A stretch of 64,000 bases of DNA, taken from the IMG/VR virus record IMGVR_UViG_3300029305_003320, positions 19,869 through 83,868 of that record; one strand, 5' to 3'. The notes under the pieces were generated by a model, which did no database searches, was not told the origin of the DNA, and saw only the letters and a list, made by a program, of their open reading frames with translations. Of the stretch, positions 11 through 64,000 are shown piece by piece. Both the position numbers and the translations under genes were made by a program. The stretch is from a virus (Duplodnaviria; Caudoviricetes). Position 1 is the stretch's first letter, and every line of letters starts with the position of its first letter.

Positions 11-3000
11 ATGTTTGTAGCTGAGTATGACACGACCAAGACTAATCCTCTAAAGGTTCTGTCGACAAATACACTAGAATACGAACTGCATAAGAGCAAC
101 GGTCTTACGTATGCGTTTGTGAAGATACCTGTATATCAGTTCTCTACTGCTACAACTGTCGAGCCTCTTGTGAACGGATCGGGATATCGTAGAGTCATTG
201 ATTATACAGATAAGTTTTATGCCATTAAGTGCATGGCTGAGACATACGTAGATGGAGAAGGCTGGGCGACAAGAGAGCTTGCTCTTTCTATGTCTGGAAG
301 AGTATACGATCCTGATGTGCCTACTGCTGTATTTACTGTCGATGCCGATAACAATCAGTGCATAGTAGAGATTCCGTATGTGTACTTTACCAAGGGTATC
401 ATTCGTGGTAATCTGAGAGTTGACATATATACAACTCGAGGATATCTAAACTACACTGTTCCGGCTGATACATCTGACTTTGTGACTATCGACATGTTCG
501 CTACAGCTCTTGATAGCGATATAGCCAAGTTCGTTGAGCCGTTCAGAACAATGCCCGGTCTCGAAGCACATCCTTACACGGAGCAGATAACAGGCGGATC
601 TAATGGTTACTCTTATGAAGAGCTCCGTAGACGTATCGTTAACGACTCTTTTGGAATGAAAGTTCTTCAGACACCTAAGGATGTCGAGACATATTTCGCA
701 AATGAAGGATACGTTGTATCTCTGTACAAAGACGGAATAACAGATCGTGTGTATAATGCCCATGCGACTCTTCGTTGGACAGATAATTCAATTGTAGCAT
801 GTGCTTCGATAGACACACTGATTACCAATGAGACACTGAATTCATCTAAGTCAGTGATAAATGTTTTAGAAGACACATACACGATCCTTCCATCAACAAG
901 ATATAGGTTGGATGTTAATAGCGGACTGTGTATACCCCTCACCGACACTGAACTTCAGGAACTCAATGATCTTGAGTTAGTAGATCGTGTTAAAGCATTT
1001 AACAACAATGAATACACTATCTGCCCTTTCCACATTCAGGTATCAACTGCAGCGAAGTATCCTACAACCGCTGTGTTCGATCTGACAGATGCTGATATTG
1101 ATTCAAATGTGTTTCTTACATCAAGAGAAAACGTTGACAAGTCATTATCTGTAAGTTCGGCTGTAATGGAAGTAGTTCCTATGGACTATACCGGTAATAA
1201 AGACATGGTTACCGATAAGTACAGAATGACTATCAATGTTACAAGGTCTGGTCTTGACAGTACAACCGCTGTAATGCTAGATGAAGGTGTAGAGGGCGTT
1301 AAGCAGTTTAGAGTTCTAGTTGGCGTCAAGAAGCTTGATGGGAGTTTTGCATTCGCTGAGGCTAACTATGTGAATCGCGTTAACAATGTCGATGTGTTCC
1401 AGATGGACATATCTGCAACAGCTGCATTCACACAAGTTGGTGATGAGTACGCCGTAAGACTCAAGACTCCATTCACTACTGCAGAAGAGGGTGTTGATGT
1501 ACTCCTTAATTCTGAAGTAAGAATCGTTTTGCTTCTTAGGAAACTTCTGTTCTCGGATAATGTTGTACTAACTCAAGACTACCTGTCTTCTGATTTCACT
1601 AATAGTGGACTAGAAGATCTTCCGATGTTCTCAGCTGTATGTGAGAATAGACTAGTTGTTCATTTTGGAAAATTGGTGAATGAACTAGACGCTCGCATGT
1701 CTTTGATGTACAGTGAAGAAAAGTATCGTGAATATGAAACTACTCAGTTCAAAGTCCTTGAGCAGCCAATTTACGAAACTGATAACGATGGCGTGCCGAT
1801 CGCTATTGTTAGTGAGGGTAATCTAAGGTTAACTGAAAAATACCCTGTAGGGACACTCGAAGCATTTACTCATACACTTCCTCAGGAGCAGATTACGCTA
1901 TCTACACTGTTCTACACCAATCTACACGGATGTAGCTTTGTAGCAGATCCGGTAGCTGGTAATACAGGGATGCTAACAAGCGGAGTTCTGTATTACCAGT
2001 GGGGCCAGGACACAATTGATGCAATGGAAGGTGTCACAGCAACTGTGTACAATGCCCCAATTGTTCCTAAATTCTCAGTTACAGCTGCGACCATGGATAG
2101 CTCTGGAACTAATGACTGTATAGGAGATTATCTCCTGGCAGAAATACTTGACAATAATGGAGTTCCTAAAGCTAAATCTAGTTCATCTGAAGATAACAGA
2201 TGGTACAGAGTGTTCAAAGACAAGAACGGAGATACAGAACATTATGAAGTTACTCCGATGGATGCCTTGCAGTTTGTAATAAATCATGCTTTATCCATTA
2301 AGAACAATGCATCATTAACCGTTATCGATGGTGTAGAGGAATATCACGTTCAGGAATCCGGCGGTAGCTATAACTACTATCTTCCTGGAGTTTATAATGG
2401 AAGCAACGATGGTAGCTACAAGACGAATCCTCTATCGAGCGTTGAAGCTCGTGAAGGTATGTTTGTGTTTGTTGTACATGATGCAACTGCTACATCTAGA
2501 TCCAATTATGATAGTTTGAATGTGATCAAACTGTCTAATAAGTCTATATCAGGATCGGAAAATAATTCCAATTCTGAAGGCACTTTGGGTGGCACGCCAT
2601 CTGCACTGTACTTCTATCACAACGGCGAATGGCATCTTGTAATGACATTCACCAGTAGCACTAACAATACAAACTCGTACGATTCGTCTGGACTTCATGG
2701 CGGAGTTCCAGCTTCTATTGAGTGGGCGAATCTTCGTCTAAACGAGCTTGAATCTGTAGTTGATAATGAGTACGAATTAGGCATTCGTCATGGGTATGTG
2801 TATCTAATACACAGAATAACTCCTACACAATTCGTTGAAGGACGTACGGATGTTGAGGACTATAATTGGGAGAATTCTCCAAGTTCAGTTATTAGCCCAT
2901 TCCAATACGTTGCCTTCATGACAACAGATTCGAATGGGGTTCCAGTATTTACTGGACTTAACAGTGCAGATAGATTCATTCAGATAGATACTCTAAATAC

Positions 3001-3928
3001 TCCGGCTGATCCTAGCAAGACGTATTACATTGAAGATTCGTCAACTGGATCATTCCTGGAAAGAACAGGTGTGTCTTCGTTTGAGGCTGGTGTTGCTTAC
3101 TATGATAAAGCAACACTTCGTCCGTGGGACGCGTATGTTAACAAGTGGCCATGGGAAGTATCTGAGTGGAGAAAGTTAAATCGTGTAGCGGATACTACAA
3201 CTGGTGCGTATGCTTATACGTACACAGTAGATAGCCTGTTTACAACGGTTATGGACAAATACAGACTGACTCCATACTGTAAGTACGTCGCAGGTCAGTA
3301 TCGTTTGGATTCTAATGGCAAACCGTATGTAGAAACTCCTCGTCAAGTTCAGTATCTACTGAATATGCTTCAGATAGATGCGAAGTTGGCAGAAACAACA
3401 GTTGTTAAGAGTACAAGATCTTATCCTAGGAATCTTATTTCCTTGATGAGAACTCATTTTGCTAATCTTGGCAATATTAAGAATAGACTGTATACCAACA
3501 CTAAGTTGTTCTTTGAACCAATGAAGTCAATTGGTTATGGTTTATTCTACACAGATGGTGAAACCACCACTGAATATCCACTAGATATCACCATGGGATT
3601 CAAACTTCATGTGTCTGCAGAAATTGCAAGCGATGATACAATGCTTGACAACCTTAGAAGGTCTGTTATAAGCATCATCGATGACCACATGGCTGAGGGC
3701 GGATGCAGTATGACGACCATAGCGGAACTCATTAAGCAGAATAACTCTGATAGTGTGAGGTACGTTGACGTCCTAGGTATCAACGGAAACCAGAAACTTC
3801 AGACGATGAGGTGTGTTGATCCTGAGGTAAGACCTCACTTAAAGCACACACTTGAGCTAGAGGATGACGGCATTACCATTACACTACAGCGTGGTTTGAC
3901 GCTCGAGTTCGTGGTGGCAAATGAGTAG
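11..3928 (+). CDS. Large virion structural protein, baseplate-wedge-like (probably 5'-truncated by the window edge)
   Basis: 1305-aa ORF whose frame is open upstream of base 11. The segment GGSNGYSYEELRRRIVND...DGITDRVY resembles baseplate-J/wedge-type proteins of phiKZ-like phages. It contains a KTYY mini-module near 2975-3110. Confidence 0.55.
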   Translation: MFVAEYDTTKTNPLKVLSTNTLEYELHKSNGLTYAFVKIPVYQFSTATTVEPLVNGSGYRRVIDYTDKFYAIKCMAETYVDGEGWATRELALSMSGRVYDPDVPTAVFTVDADNNQCIVEIPYVYFTKGIIRGNLRVDIYTTRGYLNYTVPADTSDFVTIDMFATALDSDIAKFVEPFRTMPGLEAHPYTEQITGGSNGYSYEELRRRIVNDSFGMKVLQTPKDVETYFANEGYVVSLYKDGITDRVYNAHATLRWTDNSIVACASIDTLITNETLNSSKSVINVLEDTYTILPSTRYRLDVNSGLCIPLTDTELQELNDLELVDRVKAFNNNEYTICPFHIQVSTAAKYPTTAVFDLTDADIDSNVFLTSRENVDKSLSVSSAVMEVVPMDYTGNKDMVTDKYRMTINVTRSGLDSTTAVMLDEGVEGVKQFRVLVGVKKLDGSFAFAEANYVNRVNNVDVFQMDISATAAFTQVGDEYAVRLKTPFTTAEEGVDVLLNSEVRIVLLLRKLLFSDNVVLTQDYLSSDFTNSGLEDLPMFSAVCENRLVVHFGKLVNELDARMSLMYSEEKYREYETTQFKVLEQPIYETDNDGVPIAIVSEGNLRLTEKYPVGTLEAFTHTLPQEQITLSTLFYTNLHGCSFVADPVAGNTGMLTSGVLYYQWGQDTIDAMEGVTATVYNAPIVPKFSVTAATMDSSGTNDCIGDYLLAEILDNNGVPKAKSSSSEDNRWYRVFKDKNGDTEHYEVTPMDALQFVINHALSIKNNASLTVIDGVEEYHVQESGGSYNYYLPGVYNGSNDGSYKTNPLSSVEAREGMFVFVVHDATATSRSNYDSLNVIKLSNKSISGSENNSNSEGTLGGTPSALYFYHNGEWHLVMTFTSSTNNTNSYDSSGLHGGVPASIEWANLRLNELESVVDNEYELGIRHGYVYLIHRITPTQFVEGRTDVEDYNWENSPSSVISPFQYVAFMTTDSNGVPVFTGLNSADRFIQIDTLNTPADPSKTYYIEDSSTGSFLERTGVSSFEAGVAYYDKATLRPWDAYVNKWPWEVSEWRKLNRVADTTTGAYAYTYTVDSLFTTVMDKYRLTPYCKYVAGQYRLDSNGKPYVETPRQVQYLLNMLQIDAKLAETTVVKSTRSYPRNLISLMRTHFANLGNIKNRLYTNTKLFFEPMKSIGYGLFYTDGETTTEYPLDITMGFKLHVSAEIASDDTMLDNLRRSVISIIDDHMAEGGCSMTTIAELIKQNNSDSVRYVDVLGINGNQKLQTMRCVDPEVRPHLKHTLELEDDGITITLQRGLTLEFVVANE

Positions 3929-55735: not shown

Positions 55736-56026
55736 TTAAACAATTGCCATTTCACCCTTACCGACCATGTAGCTGATGAATGCAGACTTGATCGTGTTGG
55801 GAATCTGTGCCTTCGAGAGTTTCTTGGTGGTGTAGATGATAACATCTTCATCATCGCAAAAAAGCACGATCTGGGGCTCAGGTATTCCATCGTACTTATT
55901 TCTGTAACTGACAGAGAATGTTCTATCTCCTACAGTTACAATGTGAATGGCATCGACATCGCATAGTTCGCTGTACTCTACCGTGACATCAGCGCTCGAG
56001 TGGATCTTAATGACAGATTTTTTCAT
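55736..56026 (-). CDS. Hypothetical protein
   Basis: 96 aa; AGGAG RBS. Confidence 0.6.
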   Translation of the reverse strand: MKKSVIKIHSSADVTVEYSELCDVDAIHIVTVGDRTFSVSYRNKYDGIPEPQIVLFCDDEDVIIYTTKKLSKAQIPNTIKSAFISYMVGKGEMAIV

Positions 56027-56241
56027 TTGGTTTCTCCTAAGAGTTTAGCCATATTGGCATGCTGAATTTTAGTTGTGCCGAAGTCCACAGGCTGCTGCAT
56101 TTTCAAGCCTCTACGTAAAGCAGACTCTGCTTGGCACAAGAAGCTTATAGCATCAATGAAGTGAGCACAGTATTGGCTCACTTCTTCTCCTTTGTACTTC
56201 ACCTTAACCTCAATGTGAGGAACATCTACTGGAGATTCCAT
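56023..56241 (-). CDS. Hypothetical protein
   Basis: 72 aa; ATGA overlap with the next gene. Confidence 0.55.
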   Translation of the reverse strand: MESPVDVPHIEVKVKYKGEEVSQYCAHFIDAISFLCQAESALRRGLKMQQPVDFGTTKIQHANMAKLLGETK

Positions 56242-56245
56242 AGGT

Positions 56246-56488
56246 CTACATGCCCCTGGATATCAAGTAGTCAACTGCATCGTTGATGGTCTTTAGACTC
56301 TCTGCATCTCCCTCTGGAATGCTAATTCCAAATTCTTCCTCTAGAGACATCAATAGTTCAATACAATCTAAAGAGTCCGCGGCAAGATCGTTAACTATAC
56401 TAGCAGTCGGTGTAGCTTGTTCCTTATCTACACCCAACTGATCAATAACGATCTCTGTTACTTTCTTAAGTATCTCTTCCTTGCTCAT
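56246..56488 (-). CDS. acpP: Acyl carrier protein (canonical DSL)
   Basis: QLGV...DLAADSLDCIELLMSLEEEFGISIP...LKTIND. Confidence 0.9.
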   Translation of the reverse strand: MSKEEILKKVTEIVIDQLGVDKEQATPTASIVNDLAADSLDCIELLMSLEEEFGISIPEGDAESLKTINDAVDYLISRGM

Positions 56489-56514
56489 TTTGTTACCTTT
56501 TTTGATGGTTAAAT

Positions 56515-56591
56515 TGGTCGGAGTTGAGGGATTTGAACCCCCGACTTACTGCTCCCAAAGCAGTCGCACTACCAGGCTGTGCTAAACTCCG
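56515..56591 (-). tRNA. tRNA-Pro (UGG)
   Basis: Full cloverleaf; anticodon arm ACTGC-TT TGG GA-GCAGT; encoded CCA. Confidence 0.95.
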
Positions 56592-56593
56592 AA

Positions 56594-56670
56594 TGGTGGA
56601 CGATGAGAGATTTGAACTCCCGACTTAGTGCGTGTAAAGCACTCACTCTGACCAACTGAGTTAATCGTCC
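56594..56670 (-). tRNA. tRNA-Val (UAC)
   Basis: AGTGC-TT TAC AC-GCACT; encoded CCA. Confidence 0.95.
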
Positions 56671-56674
56671 TTTT

Positions 56675-56748
56675 TGGTTGTCCTGCCCGGATTCGAACCA
56701 GAACTAAGAGAATCAAAGTCTCCTGTGCTGCCAATACACTACAGGACA
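56675..56748 (-). tRNA. tRNA-Gln (UUG)
   Basis: GGAGA-CT TTG AT-TCTCT; U1-A72; encoded CCA. Confidence 0.92.
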
Positions 56749-56762
56749 ACTACTACAGCACA

Positions 56763-57356
56763 TTACTTGTAAACCGGGAACGACGAGACGTGGATAGCTC
56801 CGACATCAAACACGTCTCTAATGAGATCTTCGACTAGAGTTGTCTGCAGTCCCTTAATATTGGCTAGTGAATCTGCCTGATACGTCAGACCTATGCCAGG
56901 AAATTCTGCGAAATCCCAAATGGTGTCATACTGATCGACAACCCTGTCAAACTTGGGCTCGAACCTGCTGTGTGCAAATAGCAACTTAAACAGGCGAATA
57001 AATTCGTCGTGACTGATCTTGTACGAAGGCTTATCTACCTCCTCCATCTTACCATGATAGGTAGATATAAGCTTGACGTTGAGCTTGAGTCCGCCAAACG
57101 AATGTTTCCTCTTAAGGAAGAACTTGTATGCCTCGACCAGATCCGGGTCGCTTACATATACCCAGACCGTTTTCTCATTGAAATCAAACTCAGTGATCAC
57201 CTTCTCGCAGTTAGCGAGTAGTGTCTCGATCTTAGTAGCCATCTCTGTAATCGGATTGGCGAGTGTCGGAAGTATCGAGATAGGCGACGCTTTCAAATCA
57301 TCATCTGTTTTGAATAGCTTGCGAACGTCGGATTTGATCTTACGCGGTTTTGCCAT
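56763..57356 (-). CDS. Hypothetical protein, paralog of 16088-16660, inside the tRNA array
   Basis: Shared motifs listed under 16088-16660; AAGGAGG RBS. Confidence 0.7.
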   Translation of the reverse strand: MAKPRKIKSDVRKLFKTDDDLKASPISILPTLANPITEMATKIETLLANCEKVITEFDFNEKTVWVYVSDPDLVEAYKFFLKRKHSFGGLKLNVKLISTYHGKMEEVDKPSYKISHDEFIRLFKLLFAHSRFEPKFDRVVDQYDTIWDFAEFPGIGLTYQADSLANIKGLQTTLVEDLIRDVFDVGAIHVSSFPVYK

Positions 57357-57389
57357 TTTGGCCTCCTTATTGTTTATGGTTTGTTATAT

Positions 57390-57465
57390 TGGTAGGACTT
57401 GCGGGGATCGAACCCGCGACCCTGTCATTAAAAGTGACATGCTCTACCTACTGAGCTAAAGTCCC
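57390..57465 (-). tRNA. tRNA-Lys (UUU)
   Basis: TGTCA-CT TTT AA-TGACA; encoded CCA. Confidence 0.95.
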
Positions 57466-57476
57466 ACCGAAATTGT

Positions 57477-58196
57477 TTATTTAGCTACAGGTTTCTGCTT
57501 CACATAGATCTTGCAAATGCAAGGAACCCCATAGTCCTTGTTTTTCACAAAATCTTCACAGTGGCATTTCGTACCGTTAGCTTTAGCCTGGCACGGGCAA
57601 TAGCCGCCATTTTTATCAATAGCATCGAGCACTTTATTCACTTGAGCAGTAGTCAATCCCTCATTAAGACGAACAACGTAATCAGTTGCTACAGGAGCTG
57701 GTGTTGGATCTGGTGCAGGTTGCGGCTTCGGTTCTGCCGGTTTACTTGCTAGAATCTTTTTAAGAGCCGCAATCATCTTCTTGGCACCAGCGTCTTTAGT
57801 TTCTTTGCCACGAAGAGTGTCACCATCTACATAAGTGTCCGAAATAATTTTCTTCCCGTCTTTCGACCAAAGAGTGATGCGGAATCCAGGAAACCACTTT
57901 ATTTTGCCTGCATTGAAAATCCAGTTGTATAATGTTTGCCCTTTGTCTTTATCCCCTGAATACTGAAACACAAAATACACATCTGCAGATGTCATCCACG
58001 TGATGAAAGACTTTTGCATCATGCATGCCTCTGTTGCTATACAGCTGCCGCATTTGTCTCCGTTGGACCAGCATGTTATAATAAACTTATACTGCTTCTT
58101 AGCCAGAGCAAGCGCAGACTTATAGTTCTTATTCCATATACCCAATTTGGGTGCAGAACTAGAACGTTTCTTTAGAAAATTAGATGTTGTTCCCAT
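57477..58196 (-). CDS. Thioredoxin-fold protein fused to a ferredoxin:thioredoxin-reductase catalytic-like domain
   Basis: N-domain W...SALALAKK...WSNGDKCGSC (CxxC); Pro-rich linker; C-domain GYCPC...KCHC...PCICKIY. Confidence 0.7.
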   Translation of the reverse strand: MGTTSNFLKKRSSSAPKLGIWNKNYKSALALAKKQYKFIITCWSNGDKCGSCIATEACMMQKSFITWMTSADVYFVFQYSGDKDKGQTLYNWIFNAGKIKWFPGFRITLWSKDGKKIISDTYVDGDTLRGKETKDAGAKKMIAALKKILASKPAEPKPQPAPDPTPAPVATDYVVRLNEGLTTAQVNKVLDAIDKNGGYCPCQAKANGTKCHCEDFVKNKDYGVPCICKIYVKQKPVAK

Positions 58197-58224
58197 GATT
58201 GTTACCTTTTAGTTTACTGGTTGT

Positions 58225-58310
58225 TGGTGCTCCAGATGGGACTCGAACCCATATTCCTTTACAGGAAGCGGATTTTAAGTCCGCTGCGTATGCCATTTCG
58301 CCACTGGAGC
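58225..58310 (-). tRNA. tRNA-Leu (UAA)
   Basis: GCGGA-CT TAA AA-TCCGC; long variable arm; encoded CCA. Confidence 0.95.
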
Positions 58311-58312
58311 AG

Positions 58313-58389
58313 TGGCGGGCCTGGCGGGACTCGAACCCACTACCCGCTGCTTAGAAGGCAGCTGCTCTGTCCAGATGAGCTACAGGCCC
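58313..58389 (-). tRNA. tRNA-Arg (UCU)
   Basis: GCTGC-CT TCT AA-GCAGC; encoded CCA. Confidence 0.95.
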
Positions 58390-58391
58390 AT

Positions 58392-58466
58392 TGGCACCTC
58401 CAAGGAGAATCGAACTCCTCTAACGAGCATGAAAAGCTCGTGTCCTAGCCGATAGACGATGGAGGC
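58392..58466 (-). tRNA. tRNA-Glu (UUC)
   Basis: CGAGC-TT TTC AT-GCTCG; encoded CCA. Confidence 0.92.
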
Positions 58467-58469
58467 CCG

Positions 58470-58905
58470 GGATAACCAGATTAACGTACTGGATTTTATC
58501 GATTGCTCATCTACCCGATGTATGAAAGCGCAGAACATTGCTGCGACGGCGAGCCATCTAAGTAGAATTCGTCGATAACGTGCGTTAGGAGGGGTTGCAA
58601 ACCTGTCTCGTCGTATTAGAACGCACCAGTCCGGCGCGAGGATTTAGAACTTTAGTTGAAAGGATTGGTTCACTCATCCGACTGAGCCCATCTATCTGGG
58701 TCCGAAGGACTTCCTCCAGTTATTCCGAATTCAGATTATCTCATACGGGGCGGAATCACATACTTACCTTTCGCTCGTCACTACTAGACTAAGTACGATA
58801 TTGCCGTTTAAGCATAAGCGGAACTAAAGGGCATTGCAGTCCGTGCCCTGTAGCGGGCTCATCATTCCACTTACATCCGTCTGACTTTAAACCCTCATCT
58901 GAGTG
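58470..58905 (-). ncRNA. Candidate large structured non-coding RNA (one or two domains)
   Basis: No credible ORF. A 12-bp long-range stem UUGGUUCACUCA/UGAGUGAACCAA encloses GAGCCC/GGGCUC and AGGGCA/UGCCCU stems. A second domain has GUGCGUU/AACGCAC and UUAUCGA/UCGAUAA stems. Confidence 0.5.
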
Positions 58906-58926
58906 AACCAAATTGTTGAAGCTGTA

Positions 58927-58950
58927 TGGAGCACTAGACGGGACTCGAAC
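58927..58950 (-). pseudogene. 3' stub of split tRNA B (T-loop, T-stem 3' strand, acceptor 3' strand, CCA)
   Basis: GTTCGAGT CCCGT CTAGTGC T CCA; pairs 7/7 with the 5' stub at 59679-59685. Confidence 0.85.
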
Positions 58951-59659
58951 AAAGATTGTACTTGCGAATCCATCTTCTAACAGATGTGCTAGTTACATTG
59001 TAACGTCTATCAATAGCCGCCAATGAATTATCTCTTTTTAGTACTTCCTCTAATTCTTCTTTAGAAGGAGATTTTTCTTTAAGCTTCTGTCTAATGCAAG
59101 CACTGCATAAATTTCCTTTCGCCTTTTGATACATAGATCTCCCACATGAAGAACAGTGTCTTGTTTCAACTACATCATTTATGTGGGAATATGGAGAAGG
59201 GTCTCCTTTTCTAATAAAAGCGTGTAATTTTGAATGCTGAGATTGTGTTAATACCATTAAGTTTTCAGGAGAATTATTTTGTTTATTTCCGTCTATGTGG
59301 TGTACAACCTCATCTTTAGTTAAGGGTCTGCCAATTATCTTAGATGCTATAAGCCTGTGTTTATACACATATCCAGGGTGTCCAGATTTAGAACTATTTG
59401 GATGGTCTGGGTTGTATACAAAAGAGTAATTTCCGTTACTATACTCGGTGTTATGAGCAATCATTCTTTCAGGTTTTACGCATCCGCATGAGTTAGATTG
59501 ACCTCTTAATAAAACCTGTTCAGCTATAACGGATTCCGTCTGGTTTGAGCAGTCACATTTGCATCTAACAGCTTTAACTTTTTTATTACTTGCCCCGTAG
59601 AATTTGAATAGCCCAATTTCTACAACAGTCCAGTGACCGAATTTGTCGCCTATTTGCAT
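58934..59659 (-). CDS. HNH homing endonuclease (HNH_3 type with N-terminal Zn module and C-terminal HTH-like region)
   Basis: GDKFGHWTV...CKCDC...SCGC; YKHRLIA...VHHIDGNKQNNSPENL...HSKLH; likely start MQIGDK (59659). Confidence 0.9.
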   Translation of the reverse strand: MQIGDKFGHWTVVEIGLFKFYGASNKKVKAVRCKCDCSNQTESVIAEQVLLRGQSNSCGCVKPERMIAHNTEYSNGNYSFVYNPDHPNSSKSGHPGYVYKHRLIASKIIGRPLTKDEVVHHIDGNKQNNSPENLMVLTQSQHSKLHAFIRKGDPSPYSHINDVVETRHCSSCGRSMYQKAKGNLCSACIRQKLKEKSPSKEELEEVLKRDNSLAAIDRRYNVTSTSVRRWIRKYNLCSSPV

Positions 59660-59666
59660 ATATTCC

Positions 59667-59685
59667 CCAACTGAGTTACTAGTGC
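59667..59685 (-). pseudogene. 5' stub of split tRNA B (acceptor 5' strand, D-stem 5' strand, part of D-loop)
   Basis: GCACTAG TA ACTC AGTTGG, starting 3 nt after the CCA of stub A. Confidence 0.85.
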
Positions 59686-59688
59686 TTC

Positions 59689-59708
59689 TGGAGCCGGCGG
59701 AGGGACTC
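59689..59708 (-). pseudogene. 3' stub of split tRNA A (probably Thr)
   Basis: GAGT CCCTC CGCCGGC T CCA; pairs with GCCGGTG at 60567-60573 (6 Watson-Crick pairs plus 1 G-U). Confidence 0.8.
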
Positions 59709-59710
59709 AC

Positions 59711-60433
59711 TCACTTAAAGTACTTCTCTCTCCATCGACGTGTACTTGTACGATTACCTTTTCTCTTGAATGTATCTGTCTGAGCATCACAATTGCAACA
59801 AAGCAATCGCAAGTTATCGATCGAATGATTTGATGAATCTCCATCGATGTGGTCAACCACAAGTGGTACTGGTTGCCCATTCCAAGTTGATATTCCACAT
59901 TTGGAACATTTGTGACCAACAGTTTCTTCAAGATATTTCCTAACGACTTTTCGTCTTGTATCGTTTGTCGTTATGCAGTGAGGATATTCACCAGTAGATT
60001 CAATTGTAGCTTTTATTTGGTCCCATTTTGACGTGTTCGATATTGCTTGCGGCAAGGGTTTCTCGCTCTTGTGTTTTGAATCATACTCTTCTCTACACAT
60101 CGGAGAACAAAACGGATCATTCAGACTTGTCCTCAATTTCCCACAGTTCGCACAGGTGAATTTGTGTCCGTCTCCACCAAGTGCAATTGAACGATTGTAT
60201 CGTTGTTCAATGGTGACCTCTCTACCAGTGTTACTTACTGTTGCCGAGCACGAGTGACTACAAAATCGGTTAGACCGATGCTCGTAATCTATCGGTTGGC
60301 CACAACGTTCACACAATTTAGGGTTTTCGTTGTACTTTCTAATATTTTCAGCCTTCTGTGAAGCCGCACGCTCACGTGTTTTAGTAACACCAAGCAAACC
60401 GGCTTCTCTATGACTCATTCCGTTTCTTATCAT
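59711..60433 (-). CDS. HNH endonuclease (McrA-like, with several Cys4 Zn motifs)
   Basis: CERCG, FCSHSC, CANCG, FCSPMC, CSKCG...VDHIDGDSSNHSIDNLRLLCCNCD. Confidence 0.9.
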   Translation of the reverse strand: MIRNGMSHREAGLLGVTKTRERAASQKAENIRKYNENPKLCERCGQPIDYEHRSNRFCSHSCSATVSNTGREVTIEQRYNRSIALGGDGHKFTCANCGKLRTSLNDPFCSPMCREEYDSKHKSEKPLPQAISNTSKWDQIKATIESTGEYPHCITTNDTRRKVVRKYLEETVGHKCSKCGISTWNGQPVPLVVDHIDGDSSNHSIDNLRLLCCNCDAQTDTFKRKGNRTSTRRWREKYFK

Positions 60434-60476
60434 TGCAATTACTCCAATCAGCTATCGTTCCGACTTGAACATACAA

Positions 60477-60551
60477 TGGAGCCACGTGAGGGAATCGAAC
60501 CCCCTTCCAGACATTACAAATGTCTACGTGAACCAATCACGCTAACGTGGC
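60477..60551 (-). tRNA. tRNA-Thr (UGU), nested inside the footprint of split tRNA A
   Basis: AGACA-TT TGT AA-TGTCT; GCCACGT/ACGTGGC acceptor; U73; encoded CCA. Confidence 0.9.
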
Positions 60552-60559
60552 AAACAGAA

Positions 60560-60573
60560 TGAGCTACACCGGC
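60560..60573 (-). pseudogene. 5' stub of split tRNA A
   Basis: GCCGGTG TA GCTC A, starting 1 nt after the CCA of tRNA(CAU). Confidence 0.75.
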
Positions 60574-60574
60574 T

Positions 60575-60651
60575 TGGTGGACCCAGCAGGACTTGAACCT
60601 GCGACCCAGTGATTATGAGTCACTCGCTCTGACCGACTGAGCTATGGGTCC
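60575..60651 (-). tRNA. tRNA with CAU anticodon (probably Ile2/lysidine type, elongator Met not excluded)
   Basis: AGTGA-CT CAT AA-TCACT; GGACCCA acceptor; paired G1-C72, so not an initiator. Confidence 0.85.
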
Positions 60652-60655
60652 GTTG

Positions 60656-60742
60656 TGGCGGAGAGTGAGAGATTCGAACTCCCAGTTCCTTTCGGAACGG
60701 CGGTTTAGTAAACCGCTGCATTCACCATTCTGCCAACTCTCC
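60656..60742 (-). tRNA. tRNA-Ser with ACU anticodon
   Basis: GCGGT-TT ACT AA-ACCGC; long variable arm GTTCC GAAA GGAAC; G73; GGAGAGT acceptor; encoded CCA. Confidence 0.9.
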
Positions 60743-60750
60743 GTCTAAAT

Positions 60751-61263
60751 TTACTCTTTAGTTGCAGGTATACCAAATGCTTTATTGAACTCTACCTTAG
60801 GTCCTCGACCTGCTTCCAATAGATAAGGTACAATACCGCATTCTGTTGGGATGTAGACAAACTTTGCATTGTCTGTATTGAAAGTTCTTACTGCAAGATA
60901 CTTGATATACGTATCCGTTAGTTTGCCGTTTTCGATTTCGATGGCTTTAGCTGCACCTTTGGCTCTCTCAACTTCTGCTTCAGCATTGAGCTTCTCTGCT
61001 TCAAGATTAGCTTTAGCTTCTTCGATCTTGATCTGACGATTCTGCTCAGCTCTTACAAGTTCAGCCTTTCCTTGTAGCTCAGACTTCCACACGTTATAGA
61101 GAGGTAGCCCCCACATAAGAAGTGGGATGAGCATAATTACTGCTAAGATTAGTATAAATCCGCAACCTATTTGAGATAGCGGGAAGTCTTTCATCGGGTT
61201 GTCCATAATCGATCTCTCCTTACCGAATACCCATGGTGGGTGATTGTCTAAAACAGATGACAT
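60751..61263 (-). CDS. Membrane-anchored SPFH/band-7-like coiled-coil protein
   Basis: TM segment, then LPLYNVW...GKAEL..AE.NRQI.IEEAKA...AEAEVERAKG.A.A...YIPTE. Confidence 0.7.
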   Translation of the reverse strand: MSSVLDNHPPWVFGKERSIMDNPMKDFPLSQIGCGFILILAVIMLIPLLMWGLPLYNVWKSELQGKAELVRAEQNRQIKIEEAKANLEAEKLNAEAEVERAKGAAKAIEIENGKLTDTYIKYLAVRTFNTDNAKFVYIPTECGIVPYLLEAGRGPKVEFNKAFGIPATKE

Positions 61264-61288
61264 TGTGTCACCTCCTTGAAAGTGTTAA

Positions 61289-61388
61289 AAGGACTGGCAG
61301 AGTCGAACTGCCTTCTCCTCCTAGCCTAGCCTACCTCCATAGGCACGATGGGTCACTAAGAGTCGCATTACCGTTATGCTAAGTCCAA
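61289..61388 (-). ncRNA. tRNA-like RNA with expanded non-canonical anticodon arm and no encoded CCA
   Basis: GGACT/AGTCC acceptor core; D-arm GCAT-AACGGTA-ATGC; T-arm GGCAG-TTCGACT-CTGCC; central ~50-nt branched arm. Confidence 0.6.
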
Positions 61389-61569
61389 TTGACCGCGCAG
61401 AGGCAGAGCCTCCGTTTAACCAGGTCAGCGGCCCCATGTTGGGGAGTCAGGATGGATAACGCTTCCGGCGCCATCGGGCTTCATAGAGTGACACCTGGTA
61501 ACATCAAGTGTCTGACACGCATAGTTACGTACCTATACGCATCCTCCGTCCCTCTGGAAGATTATCAAA

Positions 61570-62001
61570 TTACCTTTCTTCAGCGTAGCGGTCCGATGCT
61601 AAGTGAACATCGAATGATTTACTTTCACCGCCCCACTTGAACACGAACTCAACATTAACATCATCGCCGTCTCTGACGATCATCTTGGAATCAGACTTCA
61701 TCTTCTTCAGGAAATCTTCAGGACAAAGGTTAACATACTCTTCATATGTGGACCTGTTCTTGCATCTAATGACATAATCTTCAATGCGAATGCCCATGTA
61801 GCGGAAATCAACGCCAACCCAGTAAACAGCACCAGGTCCTTCGTCGAATCCGTGTACGTTAGCCCAGTGAAGATGACCATCGGGCCAGAGCTTAGTTTCA
61901 TCGTGAATGTGATTTATCCAATGTATCTGTTCTGTAGAACCTAACAACGGATGCCTTAGTCTACGAAACAGTTTGCTGAAAATAACTTTAATTAGTTTCA
62001 T
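61570..62001 (-). CDS. Hypothetical protein
   Basis: 143 aa; GAGGA RBS. Confidence 0.6.
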   Translation of the reverse strand: MKLIKVIFSKLFRRLRHPLLGSTEQIHWINHIHDETKLWPDGHLHWANVHGFDEGPGAVYWVGVDFRYMGIRIEDYVIRCKNRSTYEEYVNLCPEDFLKKMKSDSKMIVRDGDDVNVEFVFKWGGESKSFDVHLASDRYAEER

Positions 62002-62223
62002 GGCATTCCTCGTTTTGTTGACAAAGTAAAAGGATAACCGGACTAACGTGCCGGATTTTCATGATTTCTCATCTGGCCGTACATGAGCTACTACACGCGG
62101 CAAAGAAGAACACGTGTAGCCATGTGGATACTAACCAGAATTCGTCATGAACGCAGCATGCGAAAGGAAGAGCTGACCTGACCACATGGCAGTACCATGT
62201 GTAGCGGAAGGACTCTTTTCCCG

Positions 62224-62590
62224 CTACACACCCCGAGACAATTGTTGTTGAATGATCTGATGCATTTCTTCATAGTCAGGAAGTCCAAGATATTTACTAC
62301 ACACAGGAACTGCATTGCTCTTGGTGTAAATATACTGGAACATGAAATCCTGGACAGTATCTGACATGAAACGCATAGCATCGATACGAGCATCCTTAGT
62401 TAGGCTCTCGTCATTATACTTGACAAGTCCCTCTGCTACCTCTGGTATAGCATCGATCTGATCTGTAGTAACAGACACTGGTTTCTTGAGCATTCTTCCG
62501 CCAGGAGATGGTCGTATATACAGAATAGTTGCAATCTTCGTCTCTCTGGTACAATTCTGCATCATCATTTCGTGAGGGTATTCTGCTTTG
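62224..62590 (-). CDS. Family-B DNA polymerase subunit (phiKZ gp82-like), exon 2
   Basis: Predicted splicing restores motif A: DID-V/KAEYPHEMMMQNCTRETK. Confidence 0.8.
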
Positions 62591-63182
62591 CTTTTCTCTC
62601 TAATACTCGTTTCCGTTTAGATTCAATGCTAGCATCTCTTGCTTTTCTTAGGCTGTTTGTTATCGCTCCGGACTCAAATGCGTATTTCATGTTTTCAGAT
62701 CTAGTGACCCACCTTAGATTCTCAACACAGTTGTTTGATTTATCTCCATCTATGTGATCTATCTCTGGCAAGTTATTAGGGTTCGGTATAAACGCATCAG
62801 CTACAACTCTGTGAAGTAGATACGACTTACCTTCAACACTAACGTACTTGTATCTCTTAACATCCATTTTCGCTAGAATCTCACCAGTCTCTACATTTCT
62901 AGCCACCCCATCAGGACTAACTAAAACTTTGCCTTGTAGCGCAGTTGAGTATCCGGCTTTATCTAGCTTAGGTTTAAGAAAAGCTTTAAATGCTAGCACT
63001 TTAGTGCTTCGTCTAGAATAAGACCCGTCTGATTGCATTAATAATGTGCATCCAGTTTTGTCTATTCTTTTAAAAGCACCTCCTCTTTTTCGAGAACGGT
63101 TCGACCACACTCTTCCGTCTGGATAAATAAAATACCCAGGAGCATAGCCGAATTTATCTAATGGAATTGATTCATCTGTCAT
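62565..63182 (-). CDS. Intron-encoded NUMOD4/HNH homing endonuclease (I-HmuI-like)
   Basis: GYFIYPDGRVWS; YLLHRVVADAFIPNPNNLPEIDHIDGDKSNNCVENLRWVTRSEN; AAGGAG RBS; stop codon lies in exon 2. Confidence 0.92.
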   Translation of the reverse strand: MTDESIPLDKFGYAPGYFIYPDGRVWSNRSRKRGGAFKRIDKTGCTLLMQSDGSYSRRSTKVLAFKAFLKPKLDKAGYSTALQGKVLVSPDGVARNVETGEILAKMDVKRYKYVSVEGKSYLLHRVVADAFIPNPNNLPEIDHIDGDKSNNCVENLRWVTRSENMKYAFESGAITNSLRKARDASIESKRKRVLERKAKQNTLTK

Positions 63183-63486
63183 TGTAATTATCTCCTTCTA
63201 ATAGGTAATAAATACATGGCAGTGTTTAGAGATTTGGGTCATATCACCACCCTCCAGTTACGGGTCGGGTGCACTTCGTTTCGGGTTGTACCCTACTCCC
63301 TTGCGGGATGACCTCCGAACACACTTCTCATAGAGAAGCTTCGCTGCTGATTGCCGCTCGGCTATCTTTTTCAAACCATCACGCTCGTCTTTGCAGACCA
63401 CGTTGTGGTAGTAGCTTCATCGCAACGTCCCAGCAATTAGAAGTGTTTTACATGCCGATTACGCGGCAAGGACGCCAAAGTAGTTA
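62591..63486 (-). mobile_element. Group I intron (IA2-like) in the DNA polymerase gene
   Basis: P1 GACGUUAA/UUGGCGUC with U-G pair; P2 UGCCG/CGGCA; P3 CACUUC/GAAGUG; P4 UGCUG/CAGCA; P7 GG(A)GUCAU-type/AUGACCC; P7.1 UCCC-GCAA-GGGA; P8; UCUCUAA/UUAGAGA long-range stem; omega-G at 62591; P10 CUUUG/CAAAG. Confidence 0.92.
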
Positions 63487-64000
63487 ACGTCAATATCGAA
63501 CACCAACTTGTGAACATACGACTCCTCATCGGATTCGATGAGGATCGATACACCAGTACCTTTAGTTCGTTCAGGATCCAGTACCTGTCCTCCTTTATTG
63601 GTGATGTACTTATCCCAAGGAGTATCAAGCCTCTGACCTACAGAACATGGTACACCTTGTAGAGGGTCAAGATAGACCATGAACGTGTTTTTAAGTTGAA
63701 TGGATTGCTTTGAGAAATCTTCAGGAAGAGATTCTCCTATAAGCATCATCATGGTTCGAATGTCATTATTCTTTAACTCCAACATCCTGAGAAGCATAAC
63801 GTCGACGATATTGTACACCGTATATTCAACCTTGTGCTCTCTCTGCATGATGTGGTGATCGGAACTCTCATTGAACTCAAGCTTACCTGTACCCAACTCT
63901 TTATTACAAATCGCATTTAGCTGATAGGAAGGTTCTCGTGCCTGCACCTTCCTTATTCGTCCATACATGCACATGGCATCGATGTATCTGGTGTAGTCAG
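63487..64000 (-). CDS. Family-B DNA polymerase subunit (phiKZ gp82-like), exon 1 (continues beyond the window)
   Basis: Frame is open to 64000; exonuclease-type IDAMCMY...SYQLNAI...YNIVD; ends LVFDID-GT. Confidence 0.85.

What the first reader, a model, noticed from the sequence alone, without database searches (positions are those of the whole stretch)
58927..59685. Second HNH ORF sits exactly in place of a tRNA anticodon arm and recycles tRNA sequence as RBS and C-terminus
Seen: 5' stub GCACTAG-TA-ACTC-AGTTGG runs into GGAATAT-ATG, so the D-loop GG forms part of a Shine-Dalgarno-like GGGGA. The ORF ends in the tRNA 3' stub: TGT TCG AGT CCC GTC TAG = C-S-S-P-V-stop, followed by TGCT-CCA. The acceptor stem is a perfect 7 bp (G1-C72, C2-G71, U73: Gly- or Thr-type identity). 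Both split tRNAs break in the D-loop and T-loop, and the T-stem 5' strand is lost, so a full tRNA mimic is unlikely. No replacement tRNA-Gly is seen in the window. Inference: either a repeated tRNA-targeting insertion mechanism, or an mRNA whose ends can be matured by tRNA-processing enzymes into an acceptor-stem-capped, tmRNA-like transcript.
Basis: partly seen in the sequence, partly recalled or inferred. Interest (0 to 1): 0.75.

Follow-up and report, generated by a model that had tools for sequence, protein, structure and literature searches.

The report
Nuclease gene overwrote a phage tRNA-Gly
In this uncultured giant phage a selfish HNH nuclease gene has replaced the middle of a glycine tRNA gene, leaving only its two ends; relatives of the nuclease, including one in the model phage phiKZ, also sit in or beside tRNA genes, so this is a nuclease family tied to tRNA genes, not a new kind of RNA.

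Summary
On the minus strand, 19 nt of tRNA 5' end (59685-59667) run into the start of a 241-aa HNH_3 endonuclease ORF (59659-58934). The ORF's last five codons and its stop lie in a 23-nt tRNA 3' end (58949-58927: T-loop, T-stem 3' strand, acceptor strand, U73, CCA).

Chance is excluded: no such pair appeared in 1000 shuffles.

All 9 intact tRNAs found elsewhere with this acceptor stem are tRNA-Gly, so this is a dead tRNA-Gly lacking positions ~20-53. The 83.9-kb record has no other tRNA-Gly.

All five cultured-phage homologues inspected lie 17-160 nt downstream of a tRNA inside a tRNA cluster. In phiKZ, gp296 plus an 87-nt tRNA splits a tRNA-Asn exactly at 37|38. One phiKZ relative without the insert was read and has that tRNA intact with identical flanks.

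Best reading (about 0.8): a tRNA-gene-targeting homing endonuclease of the SegB / T5 F-Tfl kind that landed inside its target, leaving relic stubs. The tmRNA-like "capped mRNA" idea has no support but could not be tested, because no RNA data exist.

No nuclease-free sister contig of this phage was found. The scan earlier reported the neighbouring HNH1/tRNA-Thr case (e1-5797583).

The parts
59667..59685 (-). 5' stub of a dead tRNA-Gly gene: acceptor 5' strand GCACTAG, U8-A9, D-stem 5' strand ACTC, D-loop AGTTGG (tRNA positions 1-19)
   Evidence: Read directly. Identical to the first 14-16 nt of intact phage tRNA-Gly genes L025-L031. Strict split-tRNA scan.
59664..59668 (-). Shine-Dalgarno-like GGGGA, half D-loop (G18 G19) and half insert, 4 nt upstream of the ATG; weak
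   Evidence: Duplex with the anti-SD is -5.5 kcal/mol; only about 30% of 44 window genes have an equal or weaker SD.
58934..59659 (-). HNH2: intact 241-aa HNH_3 (I-HmuI-like) endonuclease with an extra Cys-rich N-terminal 75 aa and a C-terminal helix-turn-helix. The last 5 codons (C-S-S-P-V) and the TAG stop are tRNA sequence.
   Evidence: Pfam HNH_3 2.9e-14, 52.9 bits. phrog_15471 8.3e-26. Catalytic H/N/H columns invariant in alignment A1, and homology ends at RKYNL. GC 36.9% against 43% for the window.
58927..58949 (-). 3' stub of the same tRNA-Gly: T-loop TTCGAGT, T-stem 3' strand CCCGT, acceptor 3' strand CTAGTGC, U73, CCA (positions 54-76; G at 58950 may be G53)
   Evidence: Read directly. 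7/7 Watson-Crick with the 5' stub. Same acceptor, U73 and, in 8 of 9, an encoded CCA (L028 reads TTG there) in the 9 intact tRNA-Gly genes.
59689..59708 (-). Context: 3' stub of the neighbouring dead tRNA-Thr (GAGT-CCCTC-CGCCGGC-T-CCA), 3 nt upstream of the tRNA-Gly 5' stub
   Evidence: 13/13 intact tRNAs with this acceptor are tRNA-Thr.
59711..60433 (-). Context: HNH1, a second, only distantly related HNH_3 endonuclease. It is preceded by an orphan tRNA 5' stub that breaks after the D-loop GG (60461-60444).
60560..60573 (-). Context: 5' stub of the dead tRNA-Thr (GCCGGTG-TA-GCTCA), upstream of the intact tRNA-Thr at 60477-60551

Best explanation
The locus is a glycine tRNA gene killed by a homing endonuclease gene. 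HNH2 is an I-HmuI-type (Pfam HNH_3) DNA endonuclease of a family (phrog_15471) whose inspected members all lie in or beside tRNA genes. The ORF now occupies tRNA positions ~20-53. Only positions 1-19 and 54-76 survive as stubs.

Likely mechanism (inferred): the enzyme nicks or cuts intact tRNA-Gly genes of co-infecting relatives. Recombinational repair from the nuclease-bearing genome then copies the ORF in, using the stubs and their flanks as homology. Loss of the tRNA core removes the enzyme's own target, so the carrier is immune.

The gene is probably transcribed with the tRNA array and translated poorly from a weak SD that happens to include the D-loop GG. Its reading frame runs into the T-loop and stops at a TAG in the acceptor strand because the junction removed the native end. 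The stubs are relics, not a working RNA. The cost to the phage is loss of its tRNA-Gly, which is tolerable because phage tRNAs are accessory.

Shown here: the stub identity, the intact nuclease, the location of all five inspected homologues in tRNA clusters, and a filled/empty site pair in phiKZ relatives. Inferred: the cleavage target, homing, immunity and the expression route.
For: 1. The stubs are real and non-random.
2. All 7 IMG/VR tRNAs and both cellular tRNAs with the same acceptor and U73 are tRNA-Gly.
3. HNH2 is an intact HNH_3 endonuclease with conserved catalytic residues. Its GC is lower than the phage's.
4. All five cultured-phage homologues inspected lie 17-160 nt downstream of a tRNA inside a tRNA cluster: phiKZ gp296, Psa21 gp414, BRkr, Erwinia phage Hallingskeid and Bacillus phage Izhevsk.
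5. In phiKZ a 774-nt insert (an 87-nt tRNA with anticodon GTT, plus gp296) splits a tRNA-Asn exactly between positions 37 and 38. One phiKZ relative without the insert was read (OP310984.1); it has the intact 76-nt tRNA-Asn with identical flanks. About 19 listed records show the same shortened match, 62-64% of the query.
6. Three 5' junctions in this array fall in the D-loop and two 3' junctions fall in or next to the T-loop.
7. Precedent: T4 SegB recognises the T-loop motif GGTTCRANTCC and cuts inside tRNA genes (PMC2330249). T5 carries the HNH genes F-TflI/II/IV in its tRNA cluster (cited in PMC2330249 and PMC10644984).
Against: HNH2 shares only about 35% identity with gp296, so the target may differ. 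Unlike phiKZ, 34 nt of the tRNA are deleted and no replacement tRNA travels with the nuclease, so the insertion route may differ. The perfect 7-bp complementarity and intact CCA could reflect either a recent event or selection on the stubs; the data cannot separate the two. Nuclease activity and target are untested.
Confidence: 0.8

Rival explanations
1. The stub pair is functional. In the array transcript the two acceptor halves pair, and tRNA-processing enzymes (RNase P, 3' trimming, CCA maintenance) release or regulate a roughly 760-nt acceptor-capped HNH mRNA.
For: Perfect 7-bp complementarity, U73 and an encoded CCA are retained. MFE and centroid folds both close the RNA with this helix. 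In T4 the segB ORF is cut between its last codon and its stop codon during tRNA-Arg maturation, so tRNA processing is known to touch HEG mRNAs (PMC2330249).
Against: The T-arm that RNase P and tmRNA-type recognition need is missing; only the T-loop and one strand survive. ARAGORN and Rfam give no tRNA or tmRNA signal there. The end helix in the fold is trivial for complementary ends, and the whole RNA has z = -0.82. The ACGGG at nt 88-92 that could restore a T-stem is expected by chance in 700 nt. Analogous stubs elsewhere carry substitutions: the phiKZ T-loop and anticodon stem and the L025 T-stem. No RNA data exist.
Confidence: 0.07
2. There was no insertion into a tRNA. HNH2 was a free-standing gene between tRNA genes, like its homologues, and later deletions or illegitimate recombination at conserved D-loop and T-loop microhomologies trimmed the neighbouring tRNA genes down to stubs.
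For: All inspected homologues sit just downstream of an intact tRNA. SegB-driven microhomology recombination between a tRNA 5' end and the segB 3' end truncates segB in T6 (PMC13096335). The orphan 5' stub in front of HNH1 shows that the array has been rearranged repeatedly.
Against: The two stubs match each other 7/7 and both match tRNA-Gly. That requires either a single gene as source or two near-identical copies flanking the ORF plus two independent deletions. The phiKZ case shows a direct insertion into one tRNA gene.
Confidence: 0.1
3. It is an intron-containing tRNA-Gly gene. The ORF lies in a self-splicing intron and a working tRNA is restored by splicing.
For: HNH genes often live in group I introns.
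Against: 34 nt of tRNA core, including the anticodon, are absent from the DNA, so no splice can rebuild a tRNA. No intron family reaches E <= 1 in 56000-64000. The ORF fills the space between the stubs to within 7 nt.
Confidence: 0.01

Closest known systems
Phage T4 SegB, a free-standing GIY-YIG homing endonuclease in the tRNA gene cluster (PMC2330249; PMC13096335)
   Same: A selfish nuclease gene lives inside a phage tRNA array. Its target lies inside tRNA genes, with recognition centred on the conserved T-loop motif. It spreads by recombinational repair, with gain or loss of neighbouring tRNA genes. Its ORF end overlaps tRNA sequence.
   Different: SegB is GIY-YIG, not HNH. It sits between intact tRNA genes, not inside one. 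No tRNA stubs flanking it are described. Its cleavage and homing were shown by experiment; here they are only inferred.
Phage T5 F-TflI / F-TflII / F-TflIV, HNH endonucleases encoded in the tRNA gene region (Akulenko 2004, PMID 15456135, as cited in PMC2330249, PMC10644984 and PMC5714182)
   Same: HNH-type site-specific endonucleases located in a phage tRNA cluster that vary between close relatives.
   Different: I could not read the primary paper, so their exact sites are not compared. PMC5714182 places F-TflIV in a different His-Me group from HNH_3. No interrupted tRNA is reported in the texts I read.
phiKZ gp296 (PHIKZ296) and Psa21 gp414, phrog_15471 HNH endonucleases
   Same: They are the closest named homologues (about 35% identity over about 160 aa, E about 1e-21). 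Both lie in the tRNA cluster of a giant phage. In phiKZ the gene is flanked by the two halves of one tRNA gene, and a relative has the intact tRNA at that place.
   Different: The phiKZ insertion is exact (37|38, nothing lost), carries its own 87-nt tRNA with the same anticodon, and hits tRNA-Asn. Here 34 nt are lost, there is no replacement tRNA, and the target is tRNA-Gly. PMC12571901 lists gp296 only as a non-core HNH nuclease and says the targets of phiKZ nucleases are largely unknown.
I-HmuI and other intron-encoded HNH_3 endonucleases
   Same: Same catalytic family (Pfam HNH_3, His-Me finger group 2 of PMC5714182), combined with DNA-binding modules.
   Different: Those genes sit in self-splicing introns that restore the host gene. 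Here there is no intron and the host gene is destroyed. A sequence search of the PDB found no match at E <= 0.1.

Membership tests
HNH_3 / His-Me finger homing endonucleases (PF13392, I-HmuI group) | Significant match to the HNH_3 profile above Pfam's gathering score | tested here: met
   52.9 bits against a cut-off of 24.8, E 2.9e-14, residues 98-143. 16 PHROG families match at E <= 1e-5, 14 of them named HNH endonuclease; the best is phrog_15471 at 8.3e-26.
HNH_3 / His-Me finger homing endonucleases (PF13392, I-HmuI group) | Catalytic His / Asn / His residues present | tested here: met
   H120, H121, N133, H142 and H146 are invariant columns in alignment A1 with 7 homologues.
HNH_3 / His-Me finger homing endonucleases (PF13392, I-HmuI group) | Attached sequence-specific DNA-binding module | tested here: inconclusive
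   The C-terminal HTH_28 match scores 19.8 bits, below the cut-off of 25, but the region is conserved in homologues. The Cys-rich N-terminal 75 aa are not assigned.
HNH_3 / His-Me finger homing endonucleases (PF13392, I-HmuI group) | Site-specific nicking or cleavage of DNA | not testable with these tools
   Needs purified protein and a substrate.
Free-standing homing endonuclease gene of a phage tRNA cluster (SegB / F-Tfl kind) | Gene located within a tRNA gene array | tested here: met
   The array spans 56515-60742 and HNH2 lies inside it. The five homologues inspected do the same.
Free-standing homing endonuclease gene of a phage tRNA cluster (SegB / F-Tfl kind) | Present/absent polymorphism at the same locus among close relatives, with the empty allele carrying the intact target | tested here: inconclusive
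   No sister of this phage could be retrieved. The feature is met for the homologue gp296 in phiKZ relatives.
Free-standing homing endonuclease gene of a phage tRNA cluster (SegB / F-Tfl kind) | Cleaves the nuclease-free allele and is preferentially inherited in co-infection | not testable with these tools
   Needs an experiment.
Functional tRNA-Gly gene | Complete cloverleaf with an anticodon arm | tested here: not met
   Positions ~20-53 are absent. ARAGORN and Rfam tRNA report nothing there. It is a pseudogene.
Functional tRNA-Gly gene | Acceptor stem and discriminator of glycine tRNAs | tested here: met
   9 of 9 intact tRNAs sharing GCACTAG/CTAGTGC and U73 have Gly anticodons: GCC x5, UCC x2, CCC x2.
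tmRNA / tRNA-like structure | Acceptor stem stacked on a T-arm, with a tag reading frame or elbow | tested here: not met
   The T-stem 5' strand is missing. ARAGORN reports no tmRNA and Rfam reports no tmRNA or tRNA-like hit at E <= 1.
Group I intron with an endonuclease ORF inserted in a tRNA | Ribozyme core, and exons that join into a whole tRNA | tested here: not met
   No intron family reaches E <= 1. The exons would give only 19 + 23 nt with no anticodon.

The most novel reading that the evidence does not exclude
The retained acceptor halves and CCA are kept by selection. They pair in the array transcript and recruit tRNA-maturation enzymes, so that the nuclease mRNA is released, capped or throttled as a tRNA-ended RNA. 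That would be a new way for a selfish gene to ride the tRNA-processing pathway.
Probability: 0.05. Interest if true: 0.8.

Novelty: new variant of a known kind. Interest (0 to 1): 0.45.

Why it matters
Homing endonucleases in phage tRNA clusters are known (T4 SegB, T5 F-Tfl), but they are described as sitting between tRNA genes. Here an HNH gene sits inside a tRNA gene with no intron to repair the damage. All five inspected relatives of that nuclease lie in phage tRNA clusters, in giant Pseudomonas and Erwinia phages and in a Bacillus phage.

Two things follow. First, these selfish genes appear to edit phage tRNA repertoires. They delete a tRNA here, and at the neighbouring locus and in phiKZ they bring a tRNA with the same anticodon. 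This matters now that phage tRNAs are known to counter tRNA-cleaving host defences (PMC13096335; PMC11464382).

Second, it yields a concrete and testable target prediction for a nuclease of the model phage phiKZ. A recent functional screen says the targets of phiKZ nucleases are largely unknown (PMC12571901). The prediction is that gp296 cuts the intact tRNA-Asn gene found in phiKZ relatives that lack it. For annotation, split tRNA ends around an ORF should be read as nuclease scars, not as new RNAs.

Tried and rejected
- **Sister genomes with an empty site.** These all failed to find one:
  - Exact scans of IMG/VR for the 5' stub, the 3' stub, the stub A to stub C junction and a motif of the adjacent non-coding RNA gave 0 hits.
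  - Megablast and blastn against cultured phages matched only at the level of tRNAs.
  - Relatives of two flanking proteins in IMG/VR and JGI metagenomes are 47-68% identical and not syntenic; most carry no tRNAs.
- **Read laying.** Three runs hold the identical phage at 2-4x as short contigs. One bovine-gut run holds a 98% relative whose contig stops at 58349 inside tRNA-Arg. No contig joins across HNH2. The uncovered stretch in that run proves nothing.
- **Intron reading.** Rejected.
- **Assembly chimera.** Rejected; conserved tRNA motifs are too short to mis-join, and other contigs agree.
- **tRNA-Thr identity for the stub.** Rejected in favour of Gly.
- **Host tRNA origin.** The strict pattern has no match in about 186,000 species genomes. 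The loose pattern finds only two tRNA-Gly(CCC) genes in Bacilli MAGs, plus four chance hits.
- **Promoter and terminator scan.** Not above shuffles.
- **PDB sequence search.** No match.
- **Loose split-tRNA scan of all fetched loci.** Mostly false positives; only the L030 group stub was real.

Full report
**What is there.** The window is the last 64 kb of an 83,868-bp IMG/VR virus record judged 32% complete. Its 739-aa ORF matches a major head protein family, phrog_3231, so this is a fragment of a very large phage. On the minus strand, ten tRNA genes lie between 56515 and 60742. Between tRNA-Thr (60477-60551) and tRNA-Glu (58392-58466) lie two HNH ORFs and a 460-nt ORF-free stretch.

Reading the minus strand gives the following, in order:
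- At 59685-59667: GCACTAG-TA-ACTC-AGTTGG, which is tRNA positions 1-19.
- Then GGAATAT and an ATG at 59659.
- The ORF runs to a TAG at 58936-58934.
- Its last 18 nt and the next 7 nt read ..G-TTCGAGT-CCCGT-CTAGTGC-T-CCA. That is a T-loop, T-stem 3' strand, acceptor 3' strand, U73 and CCA, ending at 58927.

The acceptor halves pair 7/7. The expected T-stem 5' strand is absent.

**More than chance.** A strict pattern for a split tRNA finds this pair and no other in the window. The pattern requires the D-arm start, a T-loop, seven Watson-Crick acceptor pairs, an encoded CCA, and halves 150-4000 nt apart. It finds none in 1000 Markov shuffles, and the analytic expectation is about 1e-7. A looser pattern also recovers the adjacent pair at 60573/59689.

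**Which tRNA.**
- A scan of IMG/VR for intact tRNAs with the same acceptor, the same D-arm start and U73 returned seven genes. All are tRNA-Gly: five GCC and two UCC.
- The same strict pattern has no match in about 186,000 prokaryote species genomes.
- A looser acceptor pattern returns two real tRNAs, both tRNA-Gly(CCC) in Bacilli MAGs, plus four chance matches.
- So nine of nine are Gly.
- By the same test the neighbouring stub pair is tRNA-Thr, 13 of 13.
- ARAGORN finds no tRNA-Gly anywhere in the 83.9-kb record.

**The ORF.**
- HNH2 (241 aa) matches Pfam HNH_3 at 52.9 bits and phrog_15471 at 8e-26.
- Its catalytic His/Asn/His columns are invariant in an alignment with seven homologues.
- Homology runs to ...RKYNL (residue 236). 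The remaining C-S-S-P-V and the stop codon are tRNA sequence.
- It has an extra Cys-rich N-terminal 75 aa that the nearest homologues lack.
- GC is 36.9% against 43% for the window.
- HNH1 next door is only distantly related: 42% identity over 36 aa.
- The SD-like GGGGA, half of it the D-loop GG, pairs with the anti-SD at -5.5 kcal/mol. The median of 44 window genes is -7.6.
- The 'recycled' RBS and C-terminus are therefore real, but they look like consequences of where the junctions fell.

**Where the family lives.** The best matches among cultured phages are phiKZ gp296 and Psa21 gp414, at about 35% identity and E about 1e-21. I inspected five lineages. In every one the homologue lies 17-160 nt downstream of a tRNA inside the phage's tRNA cluster:

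| Phage | Gene | Position relative to tRNA |
|---|---|---|
| phiKZ | gp296 | downstream of an 87-nt tRNA with anticodon GTT |
| Psa21 | gp414 | downstream of the same long tRNA |
| BRkr | RVBP21_2480 | after tRNA-Thr |
| Erwinia phage Hallingskeid | CDS0221 | 17 nt after a tRNA-Gly(UCC) |
| Bacillus phage Izhevsk | gp255 | 30 nt after tRNA-Ile, in a 20-tRNA array |

**A filled and an empty site for the family.**
- In phiKZ, a 37-nt 5' half of tRNA-Asn(GTT) ends in the anticodon loop (...CTGTTA).
- It is followed by an 87-nt type-II-like tRNA with the same anticodon (Rfam tRNA, 53.7 bits), a hairpin and gp296.
- Then comes the 39-nt 3' half of tRNA-Asn.
- About 19 of the listed phiKZ-like records match the flanks but lack about 775 bp.
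- In the one I read (OP310984.1) the site holds an intact 76-nt tRNA-Asn, and the flanks are identical to phiKZ for 40-50 nt on each side.
- The phiKZ halves add up to exactly 76 nt. They carry one substitution in the anticodon stem and three in the T-loop. These may be decay, or changes that protect against the nuclease.
- No intron family matches.
- In the texts I could search, gp296 appears only as a non-core 'HNH nuclease', and phiKZ nuclease targets are called largely unknown (PMC12571901).

**Another stub elsewhere.** In the IMG/VR phage group that carries the intact GCACTAG tRNA-Gly(GCC), a 300-aa ORF follows that tRNA directly. It ends 6 nt before an orphan tRNA 3' piece consisting of a full T-arm, acceptor strand and CCA. 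In one member the T-stem of that piece is broken by substitutions. tRNA debris beside ORFs in phage arrays is therefore not peculiar to this window, and in that member the stub's T-stem is no longer maintained.

**Mechanism.**
- *Shown:* a tRNA-Gly gene has lost its core to an intact HNH_3 gene. All five inspected homologues lie next to a tRNA in a tRNA cluster. One homologue's cassette is a clean insertion into a tRNA gene that relatives keep intact.
- *Established elsewhere:* T4 SegB recognises a 27-bp site centred on the T-loop motif GGTTCRANTCC, cuts inside many tRNA genes and drives inheritance of its tRNA region (PMC2330249). SegB breaks also trigger microhomology recombination between a tRNA 5' end and the segB 3' end (PMC13096335). 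T5 carries HNH genes in its tRNA cluster (cited in PMC2330249 and PMC10644984).
- *Inferred:* HNH2 cuts intact tRNA-Gly genes of relatives and is copied in by repair. The missing core makes the carrier immune. The D-loop and T-loop breakpoints here (three 5' junctions and two 3' junctions) reflect either cleavage or resection near these conserved motifs, or their use as universal microhomology between different tRNA genes. Expression is by read-through of the array with weak translation.

**Rivals.**
- *Capped, tmRNA-like mRNA.* The T-arm is gone, ARAGORN and Rfam are silent, and the RNA as a whole is no better folded than shuffles. No run on record as RNA holds the sequence, so the idea is unsupported rather than disproved.
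- *Deletion-based origin.* It needs two matching tRNA-Gly copies and two deletions.
- *Intron.* Impossible, because the anticodon arm is not in the DNA.
- *Assembly artefact.* Unlikely.

**Limits.**
- The target and activity of HNH2 are untested.
- Only five homologous lineages were inspected, and only one empty-site record was read base by base.
- Five is a small sample for a claim about the whole family.
- All five were chosen after the hypothesis had been formed.

**Verdict.** This is a new variant of a known kind: a homing endonuclease of a phage tRNA cluster that here sits inside, and kills, its tRNA gene. The scan has already reported the adjacent HNH1/tRNA-Thr instance. The added value here is the glycine identity, the location of all inspected homologues in tRNA clusters, and the phiKZ filled/empty pair, which makes the idea testable in a model phage.

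Noticed in passing
L032 (phiKZ NC_004629.1 266485-271949, reverse complement): 2260-2296, 2306-2392, 2552-3034, 3071-3109; empty site in L043:875-950 (OP310984.1): In phiKZ a tRNA-Asn(GTT) gene is split exactly at 37|38 by a 774-nt insert holding an 87-nt long-variable-arm tRNA with the same GTT anticodon, plus HNH gp296. One relative without the insert (OP310984.1) was read and keeps the intact tRNA with identical flanks. This gives a predicted target for gp296. A class-II-shaped tRNA with an Asn anticodon is also odd in itself.
   Followed up: partly
window 60444-60476 (minus strand): Directly upstream of HNH1's ATG lies an orphan tRNA 5' stub, GGAACGA-TA-GCTG-ATTGG, that breaks after the D-loop GG like stub C. 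It has no 3' partner in the window. A T-loop-like GTTCAAGTC fragment precedes it. This suggests HNH1 came from an earlier insertion in another tRNA.
   Followed up: partly
window 58467-58625 and 62020-62180 (minus strand): Two ORF-free stretches share a related domain of about 130 nt (72% mean column identity). It includes GACGAATTCT..TTAG and a hairpin with compensatory changes (CCAGT...ATCTGG against CCGGC...GTCCGG). There is no Rfam hit and no exact match of the motif in IMG/VR. It is probably a repeated structured RNA module of this phage.
   Followed up: partly
window 61289-61330 (minus strand): A perfect T-arm (GGCAG-TTCGACT-CTGCC) followed by AGTCCTTTT, with no CCA, lies just upstream of the gene at 60751-61263. 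The terminator scan also scores it as terminator-like.
   Followed up: no
window 60656-60742 (minus strand): A tRNA-Ser with a long variable arm is called with anticodon ACT by ARAGORN, which is an unusual A34 tRNA.
   Followed up: no
L030:1464-2397 (IMGVR_UViG_3300028569_000019), also L026, L029, L025: A 300-aa ORF with no Pfam match follows tRNA-Gly(GCC) directly. It ends 6 nt before an orphan tRNA 3' piece, GCCGG-TTCGATT-CCGGC-TACCCGC-T-CCA. In L025 the T-stem 3' strand of that piece is mutated. Paralogues of the ORF (68-70% DNA identity) sit between other tRNAs of the same arrays. It is possibly another tRNA-associated mobile nuclease family.
   Followed up: partly
L035:1899-1984 (Erwinia phage Hallingskeid PQ464590.1): The tRNA-Gly(UCC) located 17 nt upstream of the HNH2 homologue is 86 nt long and has a 15-nt variable region, which is abnormal for a glycine tRNA. 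It may be a repair scar at the variable-loop/T-stem boundary.
   Followed up: no
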